Below are positions 25,476 to 54,992 of a stretch of 64,000 nt of DNA, in pieces. The position numbers were made by a program, and so were the translations under genes. This DNA is from a virus. Location: positions 96,001 through 160,000 of the IMG/VR virus record IMGVR_UViG_3300035670_010555; one strand, written 5' to 3'. The notes beneath the pieces were generated by a model. That model was not told the DNA's origin, ran no database searches, and saw nothing but the letters and a program-made list of their open reading frames with translations. Within the stretch, counting starts at the first letter, position 1; each line of letters opens with the position of its first letter.

Positions 25476-27488
25476 ATGAACGACTTAATGGACGACGAAG
25501 ACAAAATGATGAGTAAAAAACAGAAGTCAGGAGATACCTCGACACCTGTGCTAGACAATTTCAGTAGAGACTTGAATAAACTTGCAGAGGCGGGTAAATT
25601 GGACCCTGTCATCGGAAGAGACCGAGAGATTCTACGAATCGCTCAAATTCTTTCCCGAAGAAAGAAAAATAACCCAATTATTCTTGGTGAACCTGGTTGT
25701 GGTAAGACCGCAATCGTTGAAGGTTTGGCAATGAAAATTGTTAATGGTGATTGTCCTCGTAATCTCTTGGATAAGAGATTGGTTAACCTTGACCTAACTT
25801 CAGTTGTTGCCGGTACAAAGTATCGTGGACAATTTGAAGAAAGAATGAAGGTTATCATTGAAGAACTTCAAGCTAATCCTAACATCATCGTATTCATTGA
25901 TGAGATTCATACGTTGGTTGGTTCAGGTAATTCCTCAGGTTCGATGGATGGTTCCAACATTTTCAAACCAGCATTGGCACGTGGTGAACTACAAGTAATC
26001 GGTGCAACCACTTTGGATGAATTCAGAAAGAACATCGAAAAAGATGGGGCATTGGAACGTAGATTCCAAAAAGTCATTGTTGACCCATCTACAGTGACTG
26101 AGACAATCCAAATTTTGAAAAATGTTCGGGACAAATACGAAACATATCACAAAGTGACTTATTCCGATGAAGTCATTGAAACTTGTGTTAAGTTGGCGGA
26201 TAGATATATCACCGACCGTGAATTCCCTGACAAAGCATTCGACATCTTGGATGAAGTTGGAGCTAGAATGCAAACCGAACTTAAGGTTCCCGAAGCAATC
26301 GAAGAGTTGAAGCGTAAGGCTGCAGAGCTGAAACAACAGAAGTTGGATGTAGTTAAAAAACAGAATTACGAACAAGCGGCACAACTCAGAGACAAGGAAA
26401 AAAAGTTGTTGGACAAATTGGAACAAGAAAAACAAAAGTTCGAGGAACAAATGTCCAAAGACAAACAAAAGGTCGGAATGGATGATGTTTATGATGTTGT
26501 TTCAAACATGACTAAAATCCCTGTTAACAAAATGTCTACAGATGATACCAAAGCGTTGTTGAACTTAGATAAACACATTGTTGGAACTGTCATTGGTCAG
26601 GATGCTGCGGTCATCAAGGTTGCAAAATCTATCAAGAGAAACCGACTTGGTATCAAAGATCCAAATCGTCCGATTGGTTCATTCGTTTTCTTGGGTTCAA
26701 CTGGTGTTGGTAAAACTCACCTTGCAAAACAACTTGCAAAAGAAATGTTTGGAAGTGAGGACGCACTAATCCGTGTGGATATGTCTGAGTACCAAGAGAA
26801 ACACACCGTATCCAAATTAGTTGGAGCTCCTCCAGGCTATGTTGGATATGAAGAAGGTGGGTTGTTGACTGAGAAAGTTAAGAACAAACCTTACTCTGTT
26901 ATCTTGTTCGATGAGGTTGAGAAAGCTCACAAGGACGTATTCACGGTGTTACTACAAATCTTGGACGATGGTCACGTTACAGATAGTTTGGGTAGAAAGA
27001 TTAATTTCAAAAACACTTTGATTATCTTAACATCAAATCTTGGAGTTAAAAAACTACAGGACTTCGGGACTGGTATTGGATTCTCAAATAATACCTATAG
27101 TAACGAAGAAGCGAAGAAAGATATCTTGATGAAAGAAATGAAAAATTTCTTTTCTCCTGAGTTTATTAATCGTATCGATGACACCATCGTTTTCAATTCT
27201 CTATCTCAAGAGGATATCAAGAAAATCACTGACATCGAACTTAAGAAGTTGATGAATCGTCTTGACGAAATGAAGTATAAGATTACTTATGATGAATCAC
27301 TTTTGAATTACCTATCAAAAATCGGATATGATGAGGTATACGGTGCAAGACCACTCAAGAGAGCGATTCAGGATAAAGTTGAAGACTTATTATCTGAAGA
27401 AGTTCTGACCGACAAAATTATCGTAGGAAAAACCTACGTGATTAAAGTCGAAGATGAAGTAGTCAAAGTAGTCAAGAAAGGTCGGTAA
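25476..27488 (+). CDS. clpC: ClpC-type AAA+ unfoldase lacking the N-terminal Clp repeat domain
   Basis: Two Walker A motifs ([16 protein letters not shown]), UVR-type M-domain ([11 protein letters not shown]), IGF ClpP-docking loop and GARPLKR. Confidence 0.9.
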
Positions 27489-37139: not shown

Positions 37140-37290
37140 CTGTAAGAGGTGGATTCGAACCACCACGAGGAGATTCAACAAATAACATATCGCCGGCCGG
37201 CTGGTGGTCTACCCCCTCATATTATTTGTCTATTTCTTAATCCCCACCCCCGAGACAGGAGGGCTTGTCTGCCAATTTCAACACCTTACA
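37140..37290 (-). ncRNA. tRNA-Asp(GTC)-like RNA with an extra arm of about 80 nt
   Basis: Acceptor TGTAAGG/TCTTACA-G, class-II-like D-arm, ccctc-CTGTCTC-ggggg, long paired extra arm and canonical T-arm. Confidence 0.7.
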
Positions 37291-38777: not shown

Positions 38778-38802
38778 AATTTTCTTTGTTTATTGGTTGA
38801 TG

Positions 38803-38876
38803 AGGTCAGAATCGGATTCGAACCGATGGATACTTGTTTTGCAGACAAGCCCCTTAAGCCACTTGGGTATCTGACC
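38803..38876 (-). tRNA. tRNA-Cys(GCA)
   Basis: cttgt-CTGCAAA-acaag; U73. Confidence 0.9.
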
Positions 38877-38885
38877 ATTTATAAT

Positions 38886-38953
38886 GTGTCAGGACGGGTT
38901 TCTAACCCGCTCCTCAGTTAACTACTGTGTGCTGCCATTTACACCACCTGACT
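38886..38953 (-). ncRNA. Degenerate AGTCAGG-family tRNA-like element (E0)
   Basis: Same acceptor strands (AGTCAGG/CCTGAC) as E1-E8; altered T-loop (GGTTAGAAACC); short interior. Confidence 0.55.
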
Positions 38954-38957
38954 ATTG

Positions 38958-39029
38958 TGTGACCGAAGAGAATCGAACTCTTACCTGAAGTGCCACAAAC
39001 TTCCGCCCTCCCACTAGGCTACGGCCACC
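38958..39029 (-). tRNA. tRNA-His(GTG)
   Basis: gaagt-TTGTGGC-acttc; genomic G-1 present; position 73 reads A. Confidence 0.85.
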
Positions 39030-39099
39030 ATATAATAATTTAGATTTCTAAAACTCATCCTCGAAAGGGTAAAGAAACTCCATCTTATTTGTTTTTTGC

Positions 39100-39248
39100 G
39101 TAGTCAGGACAGGATTCGAACCTGTATTTGTGGAGCACCATCTCCAACGTCTGAATCGAACAGAACCAATCAATCCTCTACGGGTGGTACATCTGCAGCT
39201 GTACCACTTATTCAAGAACAGCGTCTAACCAATTCCGCCACCTGACTA
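39100..39248 (-). ncRNA. tRNA-Leu-like scaffold with unique insert (E1)
   Basis: AGTCAGG-TGGCGGAATTGGTTAGACGC ... ACAGGTTCGAATCCTGT-CCTGACT-A; the interior contains hairpins and a second T-arm-like ctgTTCGATTcag. Confidence 0.75.
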
Positions 39249-39254
39249 TCCTAA

Positions 39255-39461
39255 TTATTTACCTCCTCCGTCACCATCAAGATATATCAATCTTACTGTT
39301 TCACCACTACCTATATTATGAATAGTAAAGGTAGGATATGAACCGTCTTCATTTCTTTTGTTAATAGTGTCAGTTGGCCAAATTTCAAAACCATGTTCCC
39401 AACACAGATGGTCTAATTTATCAATAAACTCATCAGTTTCTTTACTTATTTCTTTTTCCAT
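39255..39461 (-). CDS. Small hypothetical protein (inside the direct-repeat-flanked cassette)
   Basis: 68-aa ORF with AATTAAAAGTT-ATG start context. Confidence 0.55.
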   Translation of the reverse strand: MEKEISKETDEFIDKLDHLCWEHGFEIWPTDTINKRNEDGSYPTFTIHNIGSGETVRLIYLDGDGGGK

Positions 39462-39470
39462 AACTTTTAA

Positions 39471-39572
39471 TTACAAAAGTCTATACCAAATCTTAATTGT
39501 CATATCTCTTTGAGGGGATGGTTTTAGTTTTGACCATCTGTCAATCCATTCTTTAATTTCTTCTTTACTCAT
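39471..39572 (-). CDS. 33-aa small protein (MSKEEIKEWIDRWSKLKPSPQRDMTIKIWYRLL)
   Basis: Read manually; same AATTAAAAGTT-ATG start context as its neighbour. Confidence 0.5.
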   Translation of the reverse strand: MSKEEIKEWIDRWSKLKPSPQRDMTIKIWYRLL

Positions 39573-39594
39573 AACTTTTAATTTTTTCACCTGA

Positions 39595-39732
39595 CTATCC
39601 TAATTTCCACCACCTACCACATTTTTGACATTCTTGTGGTCCATATGCTTTATGCATTTTATGTTTATCTAAAACAAAATCATGTACAAATAAACACCAT
39701 ACGTTTCCAAATTGTCTAATAATCCATTTCAT
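39595..39732 (-). CDS. 45-aa putative Zn-binding protein (C...H...CxxC)
   Basis: Read manually: MKWIIRQFGNVWCLFVHDF...ECQKCGRWWKLG*; its TAG stop overlaps a TAGTCAGG element end. Confidence 0.55.
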   Translation of the reverse strand: MKWIIRQFGNVWCLFVHDFVLDKHKMHKAYGPQECQKCGRWWKLG

Positions 39733-39743
39733 ATATTTTTTAA

Positions 39744-39908
39744 TTAAAATATAATACTTAATAAATGACCTATAAAAATACCTGTTGCTAAGGCTGATAA
39801 CGATAGACTTACAAGTGTTTTTTTAGATAAATCTTTAATAAATGATGGTAGTATCCAGCTTGATATTAATACTAACCATCCCACAATTACAGCAATTTCT
39901 ATTTCCAT
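39744..39908 (-). CDS. 54-aa two-TM membrane protein
   Basis: Read manually: MEIEIAVIVGWLVLISSWILP...LSALATGIFIGHLLSIIF*. Confidence 0.55.
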   Translation of the reverse strand: MEIEIAVIVGWLVLISSWILPSFIKDLSKKTLVSLSLSALATGIFIGHLLSIIF

Positions 39909-39925
39909 AACTTTTATTTTTAGTT

Positions 39926-40005
39926 GTAGTCAGGACAGGATTCGAACCTGTGATAGACGCTCCTTAGAGTCCGCTATCATGGCAACCAATTCCGCCACCT
40001 GACTA
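39926..40005 (-). ncRNA. tRNA-like scaffold (E2, shortest of E1-E8)
   Basis: Identical 26-nt T-arm/acceptor block; interior is a single tgatag...ctatca hairpin. Confidence 0.7.
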
Positions 40006-40108
40006 TGTTGAGAATGAGAAGTCCTCTGTGTTGTAGTGCACGATTATGTTTTCCATAATTCAAGTAATGTCACTCATCTTTATGTCTCCTTTCTCAAGGG
40101 TACAACAC
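40006..40108 (-). ncRNA. Pseudoknot-like repeat element B1
   Basis: Conserved ends shared with 40235-40316; GTGTTGT/ACAACAC and TGAGAA/TTCTCA crossing pairings. Confidence 0.55.
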
Positions 40109-40112
40109 ATTT

Positions 40113-40234
40113 GTAGTCAGGACAGGATTCGAACCTGTACGAAGAGTATGTGTGTCTCTTCTCCTATGGGTTTACCTCAAGGGTTTCCACCTGCCATCGC
40201 ACGTTGTAGCGTCTACCATTCCGCCACCTGACTA
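40113..40234 (-). ncRNA. tRNA-Leu-like scaffold with unique insert (E3)
   Basis: Conserved ends; unrelated interior. Confidence 0.75.
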
Positions 40235-40316
40235 TGTTGAGGATGAGAAGTCCTCTGTGTTGTAGAGTTTGTTTACTCTCTTATATGATAGCATTTCTTT
40301 CTCAAGGAAACAACAC
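40235..40316 (-). ncRNA. Pseudoknot-like repeat element B2
   Basis: Second copy of the B scaffold with a different interior. Confidence 0.55.
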
Positions 40317-40447
40317 GTTGTAATGGAGTGGGTCTATTCCCCACAGTCAACAGAACTTAAAACTTACCTACGAGAGAGAGGTATTCTGTATGATCGTTCC
40401 CATTGCCTAAACAGTGTCTAGTATGCCTTCGGTTGTCTCTCGTGTCA

Positions 40448-40588
40448 GTAGTCAGGACAGGATTCGAACCTGTATGCACTATTAAGGTAATGCTTTTGTA
40501 TGTTTTTCAGTGTCCACTACAAGTTTCCTTAATTTTGTAGTAACTACTTTCATCCTCACATAACGTCTACCATTCCGCCACCTGACTA
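40448..40588 (-). ncRNA. tRNA-Leu-like scaffold with unique insert (E4)
   Basis: Conserved ends; interior has an actacaa/ttgtagt stem. Confidence 0.75.
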
Positions 40589-40619
40589 AATTACTTGTTT
40601 TCGATTATCAAGTTGATAG

Positions 40620-40943
40620 TTACAATTCGTAACGAGCCAATGCTGCGTCTGTGATTTCCTTTGCTTTTTTACAAATCAACACATCTTCTGAATAAATATG
40701 ATAAATTGAATCAGCTCCCAATTCGCTGAGTAATTGTGTTAACGCAACTGCGTATAATTCAATATCGTCAGCCGTGTGAGACGAAGCAACTTCGCTTCTT
40801 GACATATTTCCGAAAACTTTAGAATGAGATCGTAAGTAATCGTGATGATATGTATATGGAACTCGGCTTTTGCTATGTGGCAATTTATCAATTACTTCTA
40901 GAAACCGTTGAGGCAATGTACTATCTTCTTCTTTTCTGAACAT
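40620..40943 (-). CDS. Hypothetical protein
   Basis: 107-aa ORF preceded by an isolated 5' half of the scaffold (40968-40984). Confidence 0.6.
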   Translation of the reverse strand: MFRKEEDSTLPQRFLEVIDKLPHSKSRVPYTYHHDYLRSHSKVFGNMSRSEVASSHTADDIELYAVALTQLLSELGADSIYHIYSEDVLICKKAKEITDAALARYEL

Positions 40944-40987
40944 ATTTTCCCCTATTTAGATATTACTATTTCACCACCTGACTATTT

Positions 40988-41197
40988 TTATTTTTCCAAA
41001 ACGTACTTCATCATCTCTTGCATCTTGATAATCAAAAGTTCCATTTCATCCTTATTAAGATACAACCTACCGTTTAATGTTTTATCATCCAACTCTTTGA
41101 CTTCAACGATGATACCACCGAAACACTCAGTTGGATAAATTTCAACATTCTGTTCTTCGGTCGCAATAACTGTTTTGTTCCAAACTTTGTTTTTCAT
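40988..41197 (-). CDS. Small hypothetical protein
   Basis: 69-aa ORF co-oriented with the RNA operon. Confidence 0.55.
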   Translation of the reverse strand: MKNKVWNKTVIATEEQNVEIYPTECFGGIIVEVKELDDKTLNGRLYLNKDEMELLIIKMQEMMKYVLEK

Positions 41198-41200
41198 AAC

Positions 41201-41470
41201 TTATTTATTTTTGAATTGTTCAAACCATTGTTCTAATGTTATCTTCTTTCCTGCTAACAAATCTTCTGTATGCTTATAAAGTATATTTAATACTTCTTCC
41301 TCGCTATACATTTTTTCTTGTTGTAATCTAGCAATGTGAATAAACATTGATTTTATCCAAGTTTTTTCGTGAGGCTGTATTGTTTTTGCTTCTAATAACT
41401 CTAAGCTATAATTTTCAGCTGCTTCCTCAAGCTTGAATGCTTGTTCGTAAGGAATAAATTCGGTTTTCAT
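41201..41470 (-). CDS. Small hypothetical protein
   Basis: LEEAAE...MYSEEEV...WFEQFK pattern, common in Bacteroidota phages. Confidence 0.55.
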   Translation of the reverse strand: MKTEFIPYEQAFKLEEAAENYSLELLEAKTIQPHEKTWIKSMFIHIARLQQEKMYSEEEVLNILYKHTEDLLAGKKITLEQWFEQFKNK

Positions 41471-41574
41471 TTCTCTTTACAGTTTAAGTTTCTCTCTTAT
41501 TACTCCACTAATGTCCGAAAAAGATTTTACATCCACAAGGGATTTGTAAAATATTTTATTTTTTTTTTTGGTAG

Positions 41575-41648
41575 TGACCCCGCCGAGATTCGAACTCGGG
41601 ACTCCTTCATTAAAAGTGAAGTGCTCTAGCCAACTGAGCTACGAAGTC
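41575..41648 (-). tRNA. tRNA-Lys(TTT)
   Basis: cttca-CTTTTAA-tgaag. Confidence 0.9.
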
Positions 41649-41652
41649 ATTT

Positions 41653-41802
41653 GTAGTCAGGACAGGATTCGAACCTGTATGTAGATTTTGTATGTACTTT
41701 TGGCTTTGAAATCATCTACTAATTTCTGTACCCTAGAATACATCGGCTGCACAGCACCATATACATACTCTCACAGCGTCTACCAATTTCGCCACCTGAC
41801 TA
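41653..41802 (-). ncRNA. tRNA-Leu-like scaffold with unique insert (E5)
   Basis: Conserved ends; unrelated interior. Confidence 0.75.
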
Positions 41803-41916
41803 TTTTTGAAAAGATATGTGGTGTCGCTCCACTGCCTCTACAACCTAAGAATTTCGCTCAGAATAATTCCGTACTAATTCAAATTGCTAACAACACTTTT
41901 TTGAGTGTATATCCTT

Positions 41917-42024
41917 GTAGTCAGGACAGGATTCGAACCTGTATTGATTTACTTATTGATTGGGTGTCAACTTAATGTCTTCCAATCAATCATCAATCTA
42001 CCATTAGCTTTCGCCACCTGACTA
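41917..42024 (-). ncRNA. tRNA-like scaffold with unique insert (E6)
   Basis: Conserved ends; interior long hairpin attgattgg/ccaatcaat. Confidence 0.7.
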
Positions 42025-42106
42025 TATTAGGTTAGAGGCTGTTAACCATAAGGTCGTACGAAACATCACTTGTACTTCGTGTCAGGGAATCTCCCATACC
42101 TCTAAA

Positions 42107-42223
42107 GTAGTCAGGACAGGATTCGAACCTGTAATATGAAGTTATTCCCGATTACCCTCGTTATTACCTTCATCCCTATTGAGTGGAGGGATTATATTTG
42201 ACACCAATTTCGCCAACTGACTA
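42107..42223 (-). ncRNA. tRNA-like scaffold with unique insert (E7)
   Basis: Identical 26-nt 3' block; one acceptor mismatch; two interior hairpins. Confidence 0.7.
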
Positions 42224-42340
42224 ATGTTTTTAGTTACTTTATCAACACTTCTCCAAGAACCACCTCGGCCAGTTTATATCAATTTCACTTAGGTTACGTC
42301 ATGATTCTGCTGGTTAAGCGTCCTCAATCTAAACCTGTTT

Positions 42341-42448
42341 GTAGCCAGGACAGGTACTGCCCCTGTTGCTTGGTCTTTTGTTCACAGAGTGTCACTTATG
42401 ATACTCTGTCAAACGTCACCCACGAGTTACTTTTACTCTACCTGACTA
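42341..42448 (-). ncRNA. Divergent tRNA-like scaffold (E8)
   Basis: AGTCAGG/CCTGGCT acceptor and T-stem ACAGG/CCTGT retained, with loop GGCAGTA; interior acagagt/actctgt hairpin. Confidence 0.6.
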
Positions 42449-42451
42449 TAC

Positions 42452-42634
42452 TGTAATACCGTTTCTCTGGTTTTTACTTATGGTTTGTTCCCCATAACCT
42501 GTTGACGTGCACATCAGAGCAAGGACCTGTACAGTGTCTATCGAGCCGTTCCTCACCTTCCAATTATGGTTGCGACCCATTCGGAAGTCGATAGTCCTTT
42601 CAGTGAAGCATTATCACCTTCTGTAGATATTACA
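42452..42634 (-). ncRNA. Unidentified multi-stem structured RNA (about 183 nt)
   Basis: Nested pairings tgtaata/tattaca, aaggac/gtcctt, ctatcga/tcgatag, cttcc/ggaag, ctctg/cagag and ttatgg/ccataa. Confidence 0.55.
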
Positions 42635-42711
42635 TGGTACTCCGTACGGGGCTCGAACCCGTAAGCTCTCCCGTGAAAGGGGAGTGTCCTAACCAATTAG
42701 ACGAACGGAGC
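42635..42711 (-). tRNA. tRNA-Glu(TTC)
   Basis: ctccc-CTTTCAC-gggag; encoded CCA. Confidence 0.92.
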
Positions 42712-47565: not shown

Positions 47566-48246
47566 ATGAACATCGGACAAGAATTTCAAAACTATTACGT
47601 AAATCACTTGGGAAAGGGATCGTTGGATCTTCACAACTTCTCGAATCAAATTCAATCATCTATGACTCCATATATTTTAGAGGAAAGAGAAATGAGAGCA
47701 ACTCAGATTGATATTTTTTCGAGATTAATGAGAGACAGAATTATTTGGGTCGCAGGACCTGTAGATGATAGAATGTCAACTATCGTACAGGCACAATTAA
47801 TGTTTATGGATAATGTTGATAAAACTGACATCACAATGCATATTGACAGTCCAGGTGGAAGTGTAAAATCAGGACTTTCTATGGTTGATGTAATGAACTA
47901 CATTGCTTGTGATATTAGAACTGTGAACACAGGTATGGCAGCTTCTATGGGTTCTGTGTTGTTGGGAGCTGGAACTAAAGGGAAAAGAAGTTCTTTGAGA
48001 TTTTCGAGAACAATGTTACACCAATCTTCTGGTGGAGCTGTGGGTAACATTCAAGATGCGGAAATCACAATGAGAGAATGGGCAAAATTGAATGATATTC
48101 TATTTGGTCTTCTTGGTGAGTTCTGTAGTAAAGACCCTGAACAAGTTAAGTTGGATGCTAGTAGAGATTTGTGGTTGGATAGTGAACAAGCTCTTGAATA
48201 TGGTATTATTGACGAGATTGTTAAAACGAAAAAGAGGGGTAAATAA
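47566..48246 (+). CDS. clpP: ATP-dependent Clp protease proteolytic subunit
   Basis: DIFSRLMRDRII, IDSPGGSV, AASMGS (catalytic Ser), MLHQ, RD.W and EYGIID. Confidence 0.95.
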   Translation: MNIGQEFQNYYVNHLGKGSLDLHNFSNQIQSSMTPYILEEREMRATQIDIFSRLMRDRIIWVAGPVDDRMSTIVQAQLMFMDNVDKTDITMHIDSPGGSVKSGLSMVDVMNYIACDIRTVNTGMAASMGSVLLGAGTKGKRSSLRFSRTMLHQSSGGAVGNIQDAEITMREWAKLNDILFGLLGEFCSKDPEQVKLDASRDLWLDSEQALEYGIIDEIVKTKKRGK

Positions 48247-53736: not shown

Positions 53737-53940
53737 ATGACGAAAAAAATTGTAAGTTTAATCAAAAGATTTTTACCACCCATTTTGTTGGGGATTTTCT
53801 TGGTTTTTTCTATCATACCATTGACAGAATCTACAAATTTTTTTATTTCAACAATCTCAACAATTTTGGGAGGAATTTTAATTTCACTTGTGGTTTATCT
53901 TCTTTTTTTTCGTATCTTTAGGGGTACTGAAAAAAAATGA
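53737..53940 (+). CDS. Two-TM membrane protein
   Basis: Two hydrophobic segments. Confidence 0.5.
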   Translation: MTKKIVSLIKRFLPPILLGIFLVFSIIPLTESTNFFISTISTILGGILISLVVYLLFFRIFRGTEKK

Positions 53941-54992
53941 ACTTCGACTTAAACATATTGAACGATTACATAGAAAAGGGTTTGGTGGTCAAAAATGACC
54001 ATCCAACCCTTTCTTTGTCTATTTACAACTACACCAGAAAAACCCAATACGAAAAATTGTGGGATAATATCACCAAAAGTTGTAGGGGATTGATTTTAGA
54101 TAATCAAGGGAATGTAATCGCTAAGTCATTCGACAAATTTTTCAATTTAGAGGAGCATACCCCTACCGAAATACCTAACGAAGATTTTGAAGTTTATGAA
54201 AAACTTGATGGGTCTTTGGGGATTTTGTTTTGGTATCAAGGGAAATGGATTATTGCAAGTAAGGGGTCATTTACTTCAGACCAATCAATTAAAGCAAAAC
54301 AAATATTGGATTCGAAGTATAATGTGGAACCTATCCCAAAAGGGTATACTACTTTAGTCGAAATAATTTACCCTCATAATAGAATCGTATGTGATTACGG
54401 TGATGATGAATCTTTGGTTGTTTTGGCAATGATAAGTAATGCCAACGGTAAAGAACTTGAACATGATTCGTTATTGTTGATAAACAAAGAAACAGGATTA
54501 CCTGTAGTCAAAAAATACGATGGGATTCAAGATTACAAGAGTCTTAAATCCACTATCTCCAAAGAAAGGGAGGGTTATGTTATCAAATTCAGAAGTGGTC
54601 TTAGAATGAAGATAAAGGGTGAAGATTACGTTTGTCTTCACAGAATATTAACCAATTTTTCAAATGTAGACATTTGGGAATATTTGAAAGATAATAAAGA
54701 CTTGAATGTATTATTGGATAGAGTCCCTGATGAATTTGATTCTTGGGTTAAATCCACCGTTAGAGATTTAGTTTTCAAATATGAAAATATTCTCAAAGAA
54801 TATACTGAGATATTCAATGAACTGAAATTAAAAAATTTGGGACAAAAAGATTTTGCTGAGAATGCGAAAGGATATGACCATCCATCAATATTATTCAGTA
54901 TGTTGAATGGAAAAGATGTGTCTCCATTTATTTGGAAATTAATTAGACCTGAGTATAGTAAACCATTTTGGCAAAAAGAAATAGAATCATGA
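53937..54992 (+). CDS. RNA ligase (T4 Rnl1-like)
   Basis: CRGLI...KFFN, YEKLDGSL (adenylated Lys), EII, EGYV and KIK motifs. Confidence 0.88.
   Translation: MNFDLNILNDYIEKGLVVKNDHPTLSLSIYNYTRKTQYEKLWDNITKSCRGLILDNQGNVIAKSFDKFFNLEEHTPTEIPNEDFEVYEKLDGSLGILFWYQGKWIIASKGSFTSDQSIKAKQILDSKYNVEPIPKGYTTLVEIIYPHNRIVCDYGDDESLVVLAMISNANGKELEHDSLLLINKETGLPVVKKYDGIQDYKSLKSTISKEREGYVIKFRSGLRMKIKGEDYVCLHRILTNFSNVDIWEYLKDNKDLNVLLDRVPDEFDSWVKSTVRDLVFKYENILKEYTEIFNELKLKNLGQKDFAENAKGYDHPSILFSMLNGKDVSPFIWKLIRPEYSKPFWQKEIES

What the first reader, a model, noticed from the sequence alone, without database searches (positions are those of the whole stretch)
38886..42448. Array of anticodon-less tRNA-Leu-like scaffolds carrying unrelated cargo RNAs
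SEEN: seven perfect copies of the 26-mer GTAGTCAGGACAGGATTCGAACCTGT (39100, 39926, 40113, 40448, 41653, 41917, 42107) plus two divergent copies (38886, 42341). Each is matched to a conserved other end. On the minus strand they read AGTCAGG-TGGCG(G/A)AAT(T)GG(TAGACGC)-[variable]-ACAGGTTCGAATCCTGT-CCTGACT-A, giving acceptor stem, D-arm and T-arm. The anticodon and variable arms are replaced by unrelated, often hairpin-rich interiors; elements are 80-150 nt long. A73 and A14/A15 are kept, and six of the seven have U just before the T-stem (A15:U48). KNOWN: bacterial LeuRS relies on A73 and D/T-loop architecture including A15:U48 rather than the anticodon; RNase P and 3' nucleases recognise the acceptor-T domain; engineered tRNA scaffolds stabilise RNAs inserted at this same position. 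INFERENCE: this may be a natural tRNA-scaffold expression array for diversified small RNAs (antisense or guide RNAs, aptamers), or decoys for tRNA-targeting defence nucleases and EF-Tu/synthetase sensors. Constant frame with hypervariable content suggests diversifying selection.
Basis: partly seen in the sequence, partly recalled or inferred. Interest (0 to 1): 0.92.

Follow-up and report, generated by a model that had tools for sequence, protein, structure and literature searches.

The report
Phage tRNA-Leu-framed RNAs with swappable inserts
A large lake phage carries, inside its tRNA gene cluster, nine genes for RNAs that keep the outer frame of a leucine tRNA but hold unrelated folded inserts where the anticodon should be; they belong to a big family, not found in the databases and papers searched, in which uncultured phages swap these inserts at the constant tRNA ends, and whose job is unknown.

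Summary
Seven exact copies of the 26-mer (0 expected by chance) pair with a conserved 5' end to give seven canonical elements (78-148 nt, minus strand). Two further copies are divergent.

Each element has a 7-bp acceptor stem, a leucine-type D arm and a T arm, but no usable anticodon arm. ARAGORN calls none of them.

The flanks carry the same marks as the real tRNA genes of these phages: U-1, A-2, and C74 without an encoded CCA. This points to tRNA-type processing.

The same frame occurs in more than 120 IMG/VR contigs, with more than 100 unrelated inserts. It is absent from 50,697 GenBank phage records and from host genomes.

Inserts are exchanged as units:
- At one syntenic site in 80 closely related phages, 50 are empty and 30 hold 12 different inserts.
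- Identical inserts sit in unrelated phages, and identity starts at base 1 and ends at base 73/74.

Insert helices show compensatory changes. No antisense target was found, and expression could not be tested.

The closest known relatives are the T5 RNA1/RNA2 and T4 rnaC/rnaD "tRNA-like stable RNAs" of unknown function. They are analogues, not members of this family.

This scan has already met the family in at least six other genomes. I class it as a new variant of a known kind, mechanism unresolved.

The parts
38886..38954 (-). E1, divergent tRNA-like element (67 nt from base 1 to base 73), between tRNA-His and tRNA-Cys
   Evidence: Has the 5' TAGTCAGGTGGTG; T loop TTAGAAA; A1/A72 mismatch. 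Scores 32.8 bits with the family model R1, which is inside the range of real tRNAs. Its insert is 100% conserved in relatives L223-L228.
39100..39248 (-). E2, canonical element (147 nt)
   Evidence: Exact 26-mer. R1 40.8 bits. The 3' part of the insert is 96% identical to L082, in an otherwise unrelated 289-kb phage contig.
39926..40005 (-). E3, canonical element (78 nt) with a sealed hairpin in place of the anticodon arm
   Evidence: R1 67 bits. Rfam tRNA 31.9 bits. Insert is 100% identical in L062.
40113..40234 (-). E4, canonical element (120 nt)
   Evidence: R1 63 bits. Rfam tRNA 37.1 bits. Insert is 100% identical in relatives L227 and L228.
40448..40588 (-). E5, canonical element (139 nt)
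   Evidence: R1 61.5 bits. Insert MFE z = -2.5. An 85%-identical, 5'-truncated copy in L225 carries an A-U to G-C compensatory change in the last hairpin.
41653..41802 (-). E6, canonical element (148 nt); its 3' end lies 4 nt upstream of tRNA-Lys
   Evidence: R1 44.4 bits. Spacing read from the sequence.
41917..42024 (-). E7, canonical element (106 nt)
   Evidence: R1 57.1 bits. The same insert occurs in L044 and L089, with two compensatory pairs in its closing helix. L044 shows no other similarity to the window and L089 shares none within 600 nt of the element. Insert MFE z = -3.0.
42107..42223 (-). E8, canonical element (115 nt); 5' acceptor strand is AGTCAGT
   Evidence: R1 55.1 bits. Insert is 100% identical in relative L224.
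42341..42448 (-). E9, divergent element (106 nt) with a non-tRNA T loop
   Evidence: R1 23.8 bits, below most real tRNAs. Acceptor pairs through a G-U (CCTGGCT). Insert MFE z = -2.7.
40959..40984 (-). Orphan 5' half (acceptor strand plus D-arm remnant), right after ORF 40988-41197 and in front of ORF 40620-40943
   Evidence: Sequence. Homologues of the 69-aa ORF (68-78% identical) lie near elements in L029 (directly before a complete one), L118 and L043.
39588..39603 (-). Orphan 5' fragment: a 16-nt direct repeat of the 5' end of E2. The two copies bracket a two-ORF cassette (39255-39590).
   Evidence: TTAGGATAGTCAGGTG occurs exactly twice, at 39239-39254 and 39588-39603, with 0 expected.
39255..41470 (-). 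Seven small ORFs (39-107 aa) interleaved with the elements: 39255-39461, 39471-39590, 39595-39732, 39744-39908, 40620-40943, 40988-41197, 41201-41470
   Evidence: ORF list. No Pfam hit for any of the seven; no PHROG hit for the four tested, 39255-39461, 40620-40943, 40988-41197 and 41201-41470. Some recur next to elements in other phages.
38802..42711 (-). The hypervariable block of the tRNA operon, bounded by tRNA-Glu (42635-42711) and tRNA-Cys (38802-38876); it also contains tRNA-Lys and tRNA-His
   Evidence: ARAGORN. Relatives keep the tRNA order but hold only 0-3 elements in this block.

Best explanation
These are genes for non-decoding small RNAs built on a leucine-tRNA frame.

Inferred mechanism:
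1. They are transcribed as part of the phage tRNA operon.
2. They are cut out like tRNAs: RNase P acts at the 5' end, tRNA 3'-end enzymes act next to base 73/C74, and the CCA-adding enzyme completes the end.
3. They then persist as L-shaped RNAs.

The constant frame (acceptor stem, Leu-type D arm, T arm, A15:U48 pair) would supply processing, stability and possibly leucylation. The folded insert that replaces the anticodon and variable arms is the copy-specific part. It is most likely a protein-binding or RNA-binding module used in the phage-host conflict.

Shown: the same constant ends are the points at which whole inserts are exchanged between unrelated lake phages. The block between tRNA-Glu and tRNA-Cys is therefore a fast-turnover cassette array.
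For: - Frame: exact repeats far beyond chance. A family covariance model scores the seven canonical copies at 41-67 bits, against at most 37.9 for the 17 real tRNAs in the window.
- Leucine type: the D-arm pattern matches 13 of 24 phage tRNA-Leu, 1 of 17 tRNA-Ser and none of about 200 other tRNAs. Family-wide: U8 in 142 of 144, GG in the D-loop region in 134 of 144, A15:U48 in 107 of 121, and G15 goes with C48 in 3 of 4. These are the E. coli leucine identity elements. The anticodon and variable arms are dispensable for charging (PMC9976931).
- Not decoders: ARAGORN of 9 here. It of 139 family-wide, with scattered and odd anticodons.
- tRNA-like processing signals: elements have U-1 in 84%, A-2 in 71% and C74 in 97%. 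The 221 real tRNAs in the same loci have 70%, 62% and 96%, and only 7% encode CCA. E1 and E6 abut real tRNAs with 2-9-nt spacers.
- Inserts under RNA-level constraint: compensatory pairs occur in several insert families. The eight inserts tested (E2-E9) all fold better than shuffles, z from -0.15 to -3.0.
- Exchange: 152 elements fall into 129 insert clusters. Of 29 element pairs whose two flanks are both homologous, 22 carry unrelated inserts, and 18 pairs share an insert with unrelated flanks. In an unbiased syntenic sample of 80 loci, 50 are empty and 30 are filled with 12 different inserts behind one shared leader. Identity begins at base 1 and ends at base 73/74.
- Known precedent: T5 RNA1/RNA2 and T4 rnaC/rnaD are annotated as stable RNAs in phage tRNA clusters. 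T4 RNAC has been confirmed by Northern blot (PMC9697503).
Against:
- No target or ligand is known for any insert. There is no antisense match above shuffles and no Rfam family.
- The elements are dispensable: 50 of 80 syntenic sites are empty, and relatives carry 0-3 copies against 9 here.
- The acceptor-stem sequence is nearly invariant even in members not found through it, 46 of 55. Processing alone does not explain this.
- A 55-nt member has almost no insert (L039), so the frame may act by itself.
- Some copies look decayed or truncated: E1, E9, L223 and L225.
Confidence: 0.5

Rival explanations
1. Frame-centred decoy or sponge. The constant tRNA-Leu-like body is itself the active part. It would soak up a host factor that recognises tRNA bodies, such as a tRNA-targeting defence nuclease or toxin, LeuRS, EF-Tu or RNase P. 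The insert would only need to be a stable rod that differs between copies.
For: - The acceptor stem and T arm are conserved at sequence level far beyond what folding needs.
- Multi-copy arrays give dosage.
- A member with almost no insert exists (L039).
- The phage carries a T4 Rnl1-like RNA ligase. From my own knowledge, this is the enzyme type that repairs tRNA cut by anticodon nucleases.
- All leucine identity elements are kept.
Against: - Inserts are conserved between unrelated phages and keep their helices through compensatory changes. That is more constraint than a spacer needs.
- Anticodon nucleases recognise the anticodon loop, which is missing here.
- No defence system aimed at tRNA-Leu bodies is known to me.
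Confidence: 0.2
2. Mainly a DNA-level module. The constant ends act as portable homology, or as a recombination site, that shuffles small cassettes (inserts and neighbouring micro-ORFs) between co-infecting phages, as PeSL motifs do in T4-type phages. The elements could also be selfish, and the RNA would be a by-product.
For: - Presence/absence and 12 alleles at a single site.
- Identity of shared inserts stops exactly at the element ends.
- Orphan 5' halves and a 16-nt direct repeat bracket ORF cassettes in this window.
- The 69-aa ORF travels with elements.
- No common neighbouring protein was found.
- PeSL precedent: PMC2839356, PMC4122927.
Against: - A recombination handle has no need for a Leu-type D arm, G18G19, a covarying 15:48 pair, U-1/C74 flanks, compensatory changes in the acceptor (L223/L224), the T stem or the insert helices.
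- The 5' identity shared between different alleles is only about 10 nt, which is short for homologous exchange.
Confidence: 0.15
3. RNA punctuation. The elements serve mainly as RNase P and 3'-end cleavage sites that separate or destabilise neighbouring mRNAs. The excised RNA would have no role of its own.
For: - About half of the family's copies lie between co-oriented ORFs with no tRNA nearby.
- No promoter-like conservation is seen upstream.
- In the syntenic locus the element sits in a 31-nt intergenic gap.
Against: - Any tRNA-like fold would do for this job, so the fixed sequence and the conserved, covarying inserts are left unexplained.
- Nine tandem copies inside a tRNA operon add no further punctuation.
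Confidence: 0.1
4. Decaying pseudo-tRNAs, or tRNA genes interrupted by introns that are spliced out to give normal tRNAs.
For: - E1, E9 and some copies in relatives are degraded or truncated.
- Six family members keep a Leu anticodon call (UAA, CAA or AAG); the one drawn out (L100) has a Leu-like loop CUUAAGU. This suggests descent from a real tRNA-Leu.
- 'Enigmatic' tRNA introns have been reported in Lak phages (PMC6784885).
Against: - Removing the insert leaves only acceptor, D and T arms, with no anticodon arm, so splicing cannot yield a tRNA.
- The frames are perfectly conserved while the inserts differ, which is the opposite of decay.
- Compensatory changes occur.
- More than 100 distinct inserts are known.
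Confidence: 0.05

Closest known systems
Phage T5 RNA1 and RNA2 (AY543070, annotated 'tRNA-like stable RNA with unknown functions')
   Same: They lie in a phage tRNA cluster, interleaved with small ORFs. RNA1 has an acceptor-like stem, a Leu-type D arm (CCGGAATTGGTAGACGG), a T arm and an interior of about 75 nt with no anticodon. The RNA2 T arm is nearly identical to the one here.
   Different: They are not sequence members. The family model gives 12.7 and 24.5 bits, against at least 40.8 for canonical copies. T5 has single copies with no sign of a shared frame carrying many inserts. Their function is also unknown.
Phage T4 species 1 and 2 RNAs (rnaC, rnaD)
   Same: They are small stable RNAs at the end of the T4 tRNA cluster. 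rnaC has a tRNA-type T arm and paired ends. They are expressed and confirmed by Northern blot, with function still unknown (PMC9697503).
   Different: rnaC scores 22 bits with the family model. It has no Leu-type D arm, is not part of an array and shows no insert exchange.
Engineered tRNA scaffolds for recombinant RNA (Ponchon and Dardel approach; PMC3401473 and PMC3753655, seen only as search hits; the design itself from my own knowledge)
   Same: The geometry is the same: the cargo replaces the anticodon arm, while the acceptor, D and T arms give tRNA-type processing and stability.
   Different: Those are man-made. Here the arrangement is natural, leucine-type, multi-copy and exchanged between phages. 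The similarity is in how it would work, not in ancestry.
PeSL promoter-terminator cassettes of T4-type phages (PMC2839356, PMC4122927)
   Same: Both are short conserved motifs, repeated in hyperplastic regions, at which small modules are swapped between related phages.
   Different: PeSLs are promoter plus terminator stem-loops. These elements have no conserved promoter and a full tRNA-like architecture with RNA-level covariation.
tmRNA and bacterial Y RNA (YrlA) tRNA-like domains
   Same: Both are tRNA-like bodies joined to a non-tRNA module in place of the anticodon arm.
   Different: - ARAGORN, run with its tmRNA search, lists no tmRNA.
- Pair 3:70 is U:A, not the G:U of alanine identity.
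- Rfam YrlA matches are sub-threshold and centred on real tRNA genes, one clipping the 3' end of E6 (22-26 bits against a cut-off of 69).
- No Ro/TROVE gene is present in the record.

Membership tests
Canonical decoding tRNA (Rfam RF00005 / ARAGORN) | 7-bp acceptor stem with discriminator, D arm with G18G19, and T arm with a TTCRANY-type loop | tested here: met
   Met in E2-E8. E1 and E9 have altered T loops. Rfam tRNA passes its gathering score only for E3, E4 and E5, at 32-37 bits against a cut-off of 29.
Canonical decoding tRNA (Rfam RF00005 / ARAGORN) | 5-bp anticodon stem with a 7-nt loop, U33 and a sensible anticodon | tested here: not met
   ARAGORN calls none of the nine. Family-wide it of 139, with scattered anticodons, several starting with A or having 2 or 4 bases.
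Bacterial tRNA-Leu identity set (E. coli rules, PMC9976931) | A73; A15:U48 pair; G18G19; U8:A14. The anticodon and long variable arm are not required. | tested here: met
   In the window, A73 is present in 8 of 9 and U48 in 6 of 7 canonical copies. Family-wide: A15:U48 in 107 of 121, U8 in 142 of 144, GG in the D-loop region in 134 of 144. The D-arm pattern is specific to tRNA-Leu (13 of 24, against 1 of about 215 others). The rules are quoted.
Bacterial tRNA-Leu identity set (E. coli rules, PMC9976931) | Actual charging with leucine by the host LeuRS | not testable with these tools
   This needs in vitro aminoacylation or acid-gel Northern blots. The host is unknown.
Lake-phage tRNA-Leu-frame RNA family (model R1, built here) | Constant frame AGTCAGG-UG-Leu D arm ... 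ACAGGTTCGAATCCTGT-CCTGACT-A, scoring above real tRNAs | tested here: met
   E2-E8 score 40.8-67 bits, and real tRNAs at most 37.9. For E1 (32.8) and E9 (23.8) the result is inconclusive.
T5 RNA1/RNA2 and T4 rnaC/rnaD 'tRNA-like stable RNAs' | Located in a phage tRNA cluster, with tRNA-like ends and a non-tRNA interior | tested here: met
T5 RNA1/RNA2 and T4 rnaC/rnaD 'tRNA-like stable RNAs' | Detectable sequence or profile homology | tested here: not met
   R1 gives 12.7, 24.5 and 22.3 bits, which is within or below the real-tRNA range. The exact frame has no blastn match in GenBank phages.
T5 RNA1/RNA2 and T4 rnaC/rnaD 'tRNA-like stable RNAs' | Accumulates as a discrete stable RNA during infection | not testable with these tools
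Intron-containing tRNA (for example the Lak phage 'enigmatic introns', PMC6784885) | Removing the insert restores a complete cloverleaf with an anticodon | tested here: not met
   The frame without the insert is 53 nt: acceptor, D and T arms only. A natural 55-nt member, L039, shows this state.
PeSL-type shuffling cassettes | Modules exchanged at a repeated conserved motif | tested here: met
PeSL-type shuffling cassettes | The motif is a sigma-70 promoter plus a terminator stem-loop | tested here: not met
   There is no conserved -35/-10 signal in the 60 nt upstream of 141 elements, and the architecture is tRNA-like.
tmRNA / Y RNA (YrlA) | G3:U70 and a tag ORF (tmRNA); a Ro-binding stem and a linked Ro gene (YrlA) | tested here: not met
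   ARAGORN, run with its tmRNA search, lists none. Pair 3:70 is U:A. YrlA hits are sub-threshold. No TROVE domain is present in the 170-kb record.

The most novel reading that the evidence does not exclude
Lake phages run a natural cassette system for non-coding RNAs. A leucine-tRNA chassis would be made, trimmed and perhaps charged by host enzymes. Its invariant acceptor and T-arm sequence would be recognised by a dedicated, still unknown factor. The chassis would display one of hundreds of exchangeable RNA modules, each tuned against a different host or rival-phage target. In effect this would be an integron-like pool of small RNA effectors shared across unrelated phages.
Probability: 0.2. 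Interest if true: 0.92.

Novelty: new variant of a known kind. Interest (0 to 1): 0.74.

Why it matters
Phage tRNA clusters have been known for some 50 years (from my own knowledge) to hold 'tRNA-like stable RNAs' of unknown function, in T4 and T5.

This window shows that in uncultured lake phages such RNAs form a very large modular family. One exact leucine-tRNA frame carries more than 100 unrelated structured inserts, and the inserts are exchanged between unrelated phages.

If the frame does direct processing and stability, it is nature's version of the tRNA scaffold used in biotechnology. The inserts would then be a ready-made library of small structured RNAs, probably aimed at host or rival-phage factors.

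The family also offers a tractable system for two questions:
- What do non-decoding tRNA mimics do?
- How are very short RNA genes moved between viral genomes?

Tried and rejected
- Antisense targets: the longest words shared between each insert and the rest of the 170-kb phage record are no longer than in shuffles. In 2.4 Mb of lake-phage loci, inserts match only other framed inserts in the same sense. A search of GenBank phages with the whole array listed only matches to the embedded tRNA-Lys gene.
- Known RNA families in the inserts: Rfam at E <= 1 over the array, and at gathering score over 20 multi-element loci, gave only tRNA hits.
- Host tRNA origin: the exact 25-mer occurs in only 14 of 185,579 species genomes. 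All 14 are MAG contigs of mixed taxonomy, probably phage DNA.
- Shared motif in inserts: k-mer enrichment found nothing dominant.
- Conserved partner protein: the most frequent neighbouring ORF family is present in 16 of 134 loci. Six small ORFs in or beside the array have no Pfam hit and four have no PHROG hit.
- Phage-encoded CCA-adding enzyme, RtcB and Ro: no match, but the record is only 56% complete.
- MITE-like transposon with a TA target duplication: considered and rejected. The U-1/A73 symmetry is also seen at real tRNA genes, and all 12 alleles at the syntenic site share one leader.
- A first, slow antisense script timed out and was rewritten.

Full report
**Observation**

On the minus strand each copy is matched upstream by TAGTCAGGTGGYG, which occurs nine times against 0.05 expected.

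Reading the minus strand gives nine elements, listed here as 5' end to 3' end:
- E1 38954-38886
- E2 39248-39100
- E3 40005-39926
- E4 40234-40113
- E5 40588-40448
- E6 41802-41653
- E7 42024-41917
- E8 42223-42107
- E9 42448-42341

E2-E8 are canonical. E1 and E9 share the 5' end but have altered T loops, and E1 has an A1/A72 mismatch.

Free folding recovers the acceptor stem in all nine and the T arm in most; it re-pairs the T arm in E3 and E6. Folding with the frame helices imposed works for E2-E9.

Two orphan 5' halves lie at 40984 and 39597. The second is part of a 16-nt exact direct repeat of the 5' end of E2, and the two copies bracket a two-ORF cassette.

**Setting**

The window is part of a 169.9-kb IMG/VR phage record, estimated to be 56% complete. 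It has a portal, major head protein and large terminase. The terminase is distantly T4-like; its best cultured match is a Flavobacterium phage at 25% identity. Relatives reach 316-334 kb.

The elements lie on the same strand as 17 tRNA genes, in the block between tRNA-Glu and tRNA-Cys. They are interleaved with tRNA-Lys, tRNA-His and seven small ORFs that have no family assignment. E1 starts 2 nt after C74 of tRNA-His and ends 9 nt before tRNA-Cys. E6 ends 4 nt before tRNA-Lys.

**What the frame is**

- ARAGORN calls none of the nine. The Rfam tRNA model passes its threshold only for E3-E5, by treating the interior as an insertion.
- The D arm is of the leucine type. A pattern taken from it matches 13 of 24 ARAGORN-called tRNA-Leu in the phage loci I collected, 1 of 17 tRNA-Ser, and none of about 200 other tRNAs.
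- The frame keeps U8, A14, G18G19, A73 and U before the T stem. Across the family the 15:48 pair is A:U in 107 of 121, and G15 goes with C48 in 3 of 4.
- These are the elements that specify leucine identity in E. coli. There, the anticodon arm and variable arm are dispensable for charging (PMC9976931).
- Whether these RNAs are actually charged cannot be tested here.

**Flanks**

Elements have U at -1 in 84%, A at -2 in 71% and C at 74 in 97%, followed by A-rich sequence. There is no conserved promoter upstream.

The 221 real tRNA genes in the same loci show the same signature: U-1 in 70%, A-2 in 62%, C74 in 96%, and CCA encoded in only 7%.

The elements therefore carry the flank marks of the phages' own tRNA genes. 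This is the main, and indirect, argument that they are matured like tRNAs.

**The family**

- It occurs in only 14 of 185,579 species genomes, all of them MAG contigs of mixed taxonomy.
- The two queries that contain the frame, E3 and the whole array, found no copy of it among 50,697 GenBank phage records.
- Almost every copy has the same 5' half and a different interior of 20-150 nt. In total, 152 elements give 129 interior clusters, 111 of them singletons.
- ARAGORN of 139, with scattered and often impossible anticodons. Six carry a Leu anticodon call; the one drawn out has the loop CUUAAGU. This suggests descent from a phage tRNA-Leu(UAA).
- A covariance model of the frame (R1) separates the seven canonical copies (40.8-67 bits) from the real tRNAs (at most 37.9). 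E1 (32.8) and E9 (23.8) are left in the tRNA range.
- Members found with R1 that do not carry the exact 25-mer still keep the acceptor AGTCAGG/CCTGACT in 46 of 55 cases. They vary in the T loop, in pair 49:65 and in the D arm.
- A few T-stem variants are compensatory: GTAGG/CCTAC and ACAAG/CTTGT.

**The inserts are constrained RNAs**

- Where the same insert occurs in several phages, its helices are kept through double changes:
  - GTTGAA/TTCAAC against GAGCAA/TTGCTC in L017/L042.
  - Two compensatory pairs each in the L058/L079/L125 alignment (one in the insert helix, one in the D stem) and in the E7/L044/L089 alignment (both in the insert closing helix).
  - GGAG/CTCC against GGAA/TTCC in E2/L082.
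  - A-U to G-C in E5/L225.
- The eight window inserts tested (E2-E9) all fold better than shuffles, with z from -0.15 to -3.0.
- The numbers per family are small, so this is support rather than proof.

**The inserts are exchanged**

- Of 29 element pairs in which both 600-nt flanks are homologous, 22 carry unrelated inserts. Eighteen pairs share an insert but neither flank.
- As a sample not chosen by the frame, I fetched 80 loci through a neighbouring gene (89-100% amino-acid identity). Fifty have an empty intergenic site. Thirty are filled and carry 12 different inserts, all behind the same 12-nt leader and in front of the same trailer.
- When one insert occurs in unrelated phages, the identity starts at base 1 and ends at base 73/74.
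- Six of the window's inserts recur elsewhere inside the same frame, besides E1, whose short insert was found only in close relatives: E2 in L082, E3 in L062, E4 in L227/L228, E5 in L225, E7 in L044 and L089, E8 in L224.

**Turnover in relatives**

Phages whose cytidylyltransferase gene is 82-97% identical keep the tRNA order Met-Thr-Ser-Leu-Arg-Glu ... His/Cys-Trp. In the Glu-Cys block they hold only 0-3 elements, against nine here.

Some copies in relatives are degraded or 5'-truncated. In one of them, an acceptor change G69 to A69 (L223) is compensated by C4 to U4 (L224).

Small ORFs travel with the elements. The 69-aa ORF at 40988-41197 is 68-78% identical to ORFs next to elements in three unrelated contigs.

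**What I could not find**

- There is no antisense target in the phage record or in 2.4 Mb of lake-phage DNA.
- No known RNA family was found in any insert, and no shared insert motif.
- No constant neighbouring protein was found.

**Interpretation**

Shown:
- a tRNA-Leu-type, non-decoding frame;
- tRNA-gene-like flanks;
- structured, conserved inserts;
- exchange of whole elements or inserts at the constant ends;
- fast turnover.

Inferred:
- excision by RNase P and 3'-end enzymes, and CCA completion;
- stability as L-shaped RNAs;
- the insert as the specific effector.

The near-invariance of the acceptor sequence, and the existence of a nearly insert-less member (L039), keep two other readings alive: a frame-centred decoy, and a DNA-level shuffling role like that of PeSLs (PMC2839356, PMC4122927).

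Simple pseudo-tRNA decay and intron splicing are effectively excluded, because no anticodon arm would remain after removal of the insert.

**Comparison with known systems**

T5 annotates RNA1 and RNA2 as 'tRNA-like stable RNA with unknown functions'. RNA1 has a Leu-type D arm, a T arm and an anticodon-less interior.

T4 rnaC and rnaD lie at the end of its tRNA cluster. They are expressed RNAs of unknown function (PMC9697503).

These are the same kind of object, but they are not members of this family by profile score.

The large, constant-frame, exchangeable-insert family is not in Rfam 15, and I did not find it in the papers I searched. Notes from earlier windows of this scan describe the same family in at least six other genomes. 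My tests here agree with them.

Noticed in passing
window 42472-42533 (-): Match to the Rfam freshwater-1 RNA (RF02979): 70 bits against a gathering score of 72, E = 6.7e-15. It lies between tRNA-Glu and E9, so a known orphan lake-metagenome motif sits in the same operon.
   Followed up: no
window 37140-37290 (-): A 151-nt tRNA-shaped RNA with a different acceptor (TGTAAGG/TCTTACA) and G73. It has a stem-loop with the loop CTGTCTC (GUC anticodon) and an extra arm of about 80 nt. ARAGORN does not call it, and R1 gives 13.6 bits. Similar G73 'second chassis' elements occur in L018, L047 and L080.
   Followed up: partly
window 40006-40112 and 40235-40330 (-): The spacers directly upstream of E3 and E4 are a second repeated module. 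They share GTGTTGT..CCTTGAGAAAG and end in CTACAACACAGAGGACTTCTCAT(T/C)CTCAACA. There is no Rfam hit.
   Followed up: partly
window 53937-54992 (+): A T4 Rnl1-type RNA ligase (PF09511, 67 bits), about 11 kb from the array. From my own knowledge, this enzyme type repairs tRNA cut by anticodon nucleases, which hints that the host attacks tRNAs.
   Followed up: partly
all tRNA genes of the window and of loci L008-L141: Phage tRNA genes almost always encode C74 (96%) but rarely the full CCA (7%). This is a uniform 3' design that I cannot explain.
   Followed up: partly
loci L143-L222 (about 110 nt upstream of the matched gene): An abundant lake-phage lineage (175 contigs) is polymorphic at one intergenic site: 50 loci are empty and 30 are filled, with 12 inserts and sometimes 2-3 tandem elements. 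It would make a good natural experiment for studying exchange.
   Followed up: yes
window 25476-27488 (+) and 47566-48246 (+): The phage encodes a Lon-like ATP-dependent protease (phrog_4871) and a ClpP protease (PF00574).
   Followed up: no
window 40988-41197 (-); L029, L118, L043: A 69-aa ORF of unknown function recurs, at 68-78% identity, near tRNA-framed elements in unrelated contigs (directly before one in L029). In this window it is followed by an orphan 5' half.
   Followed up: partly
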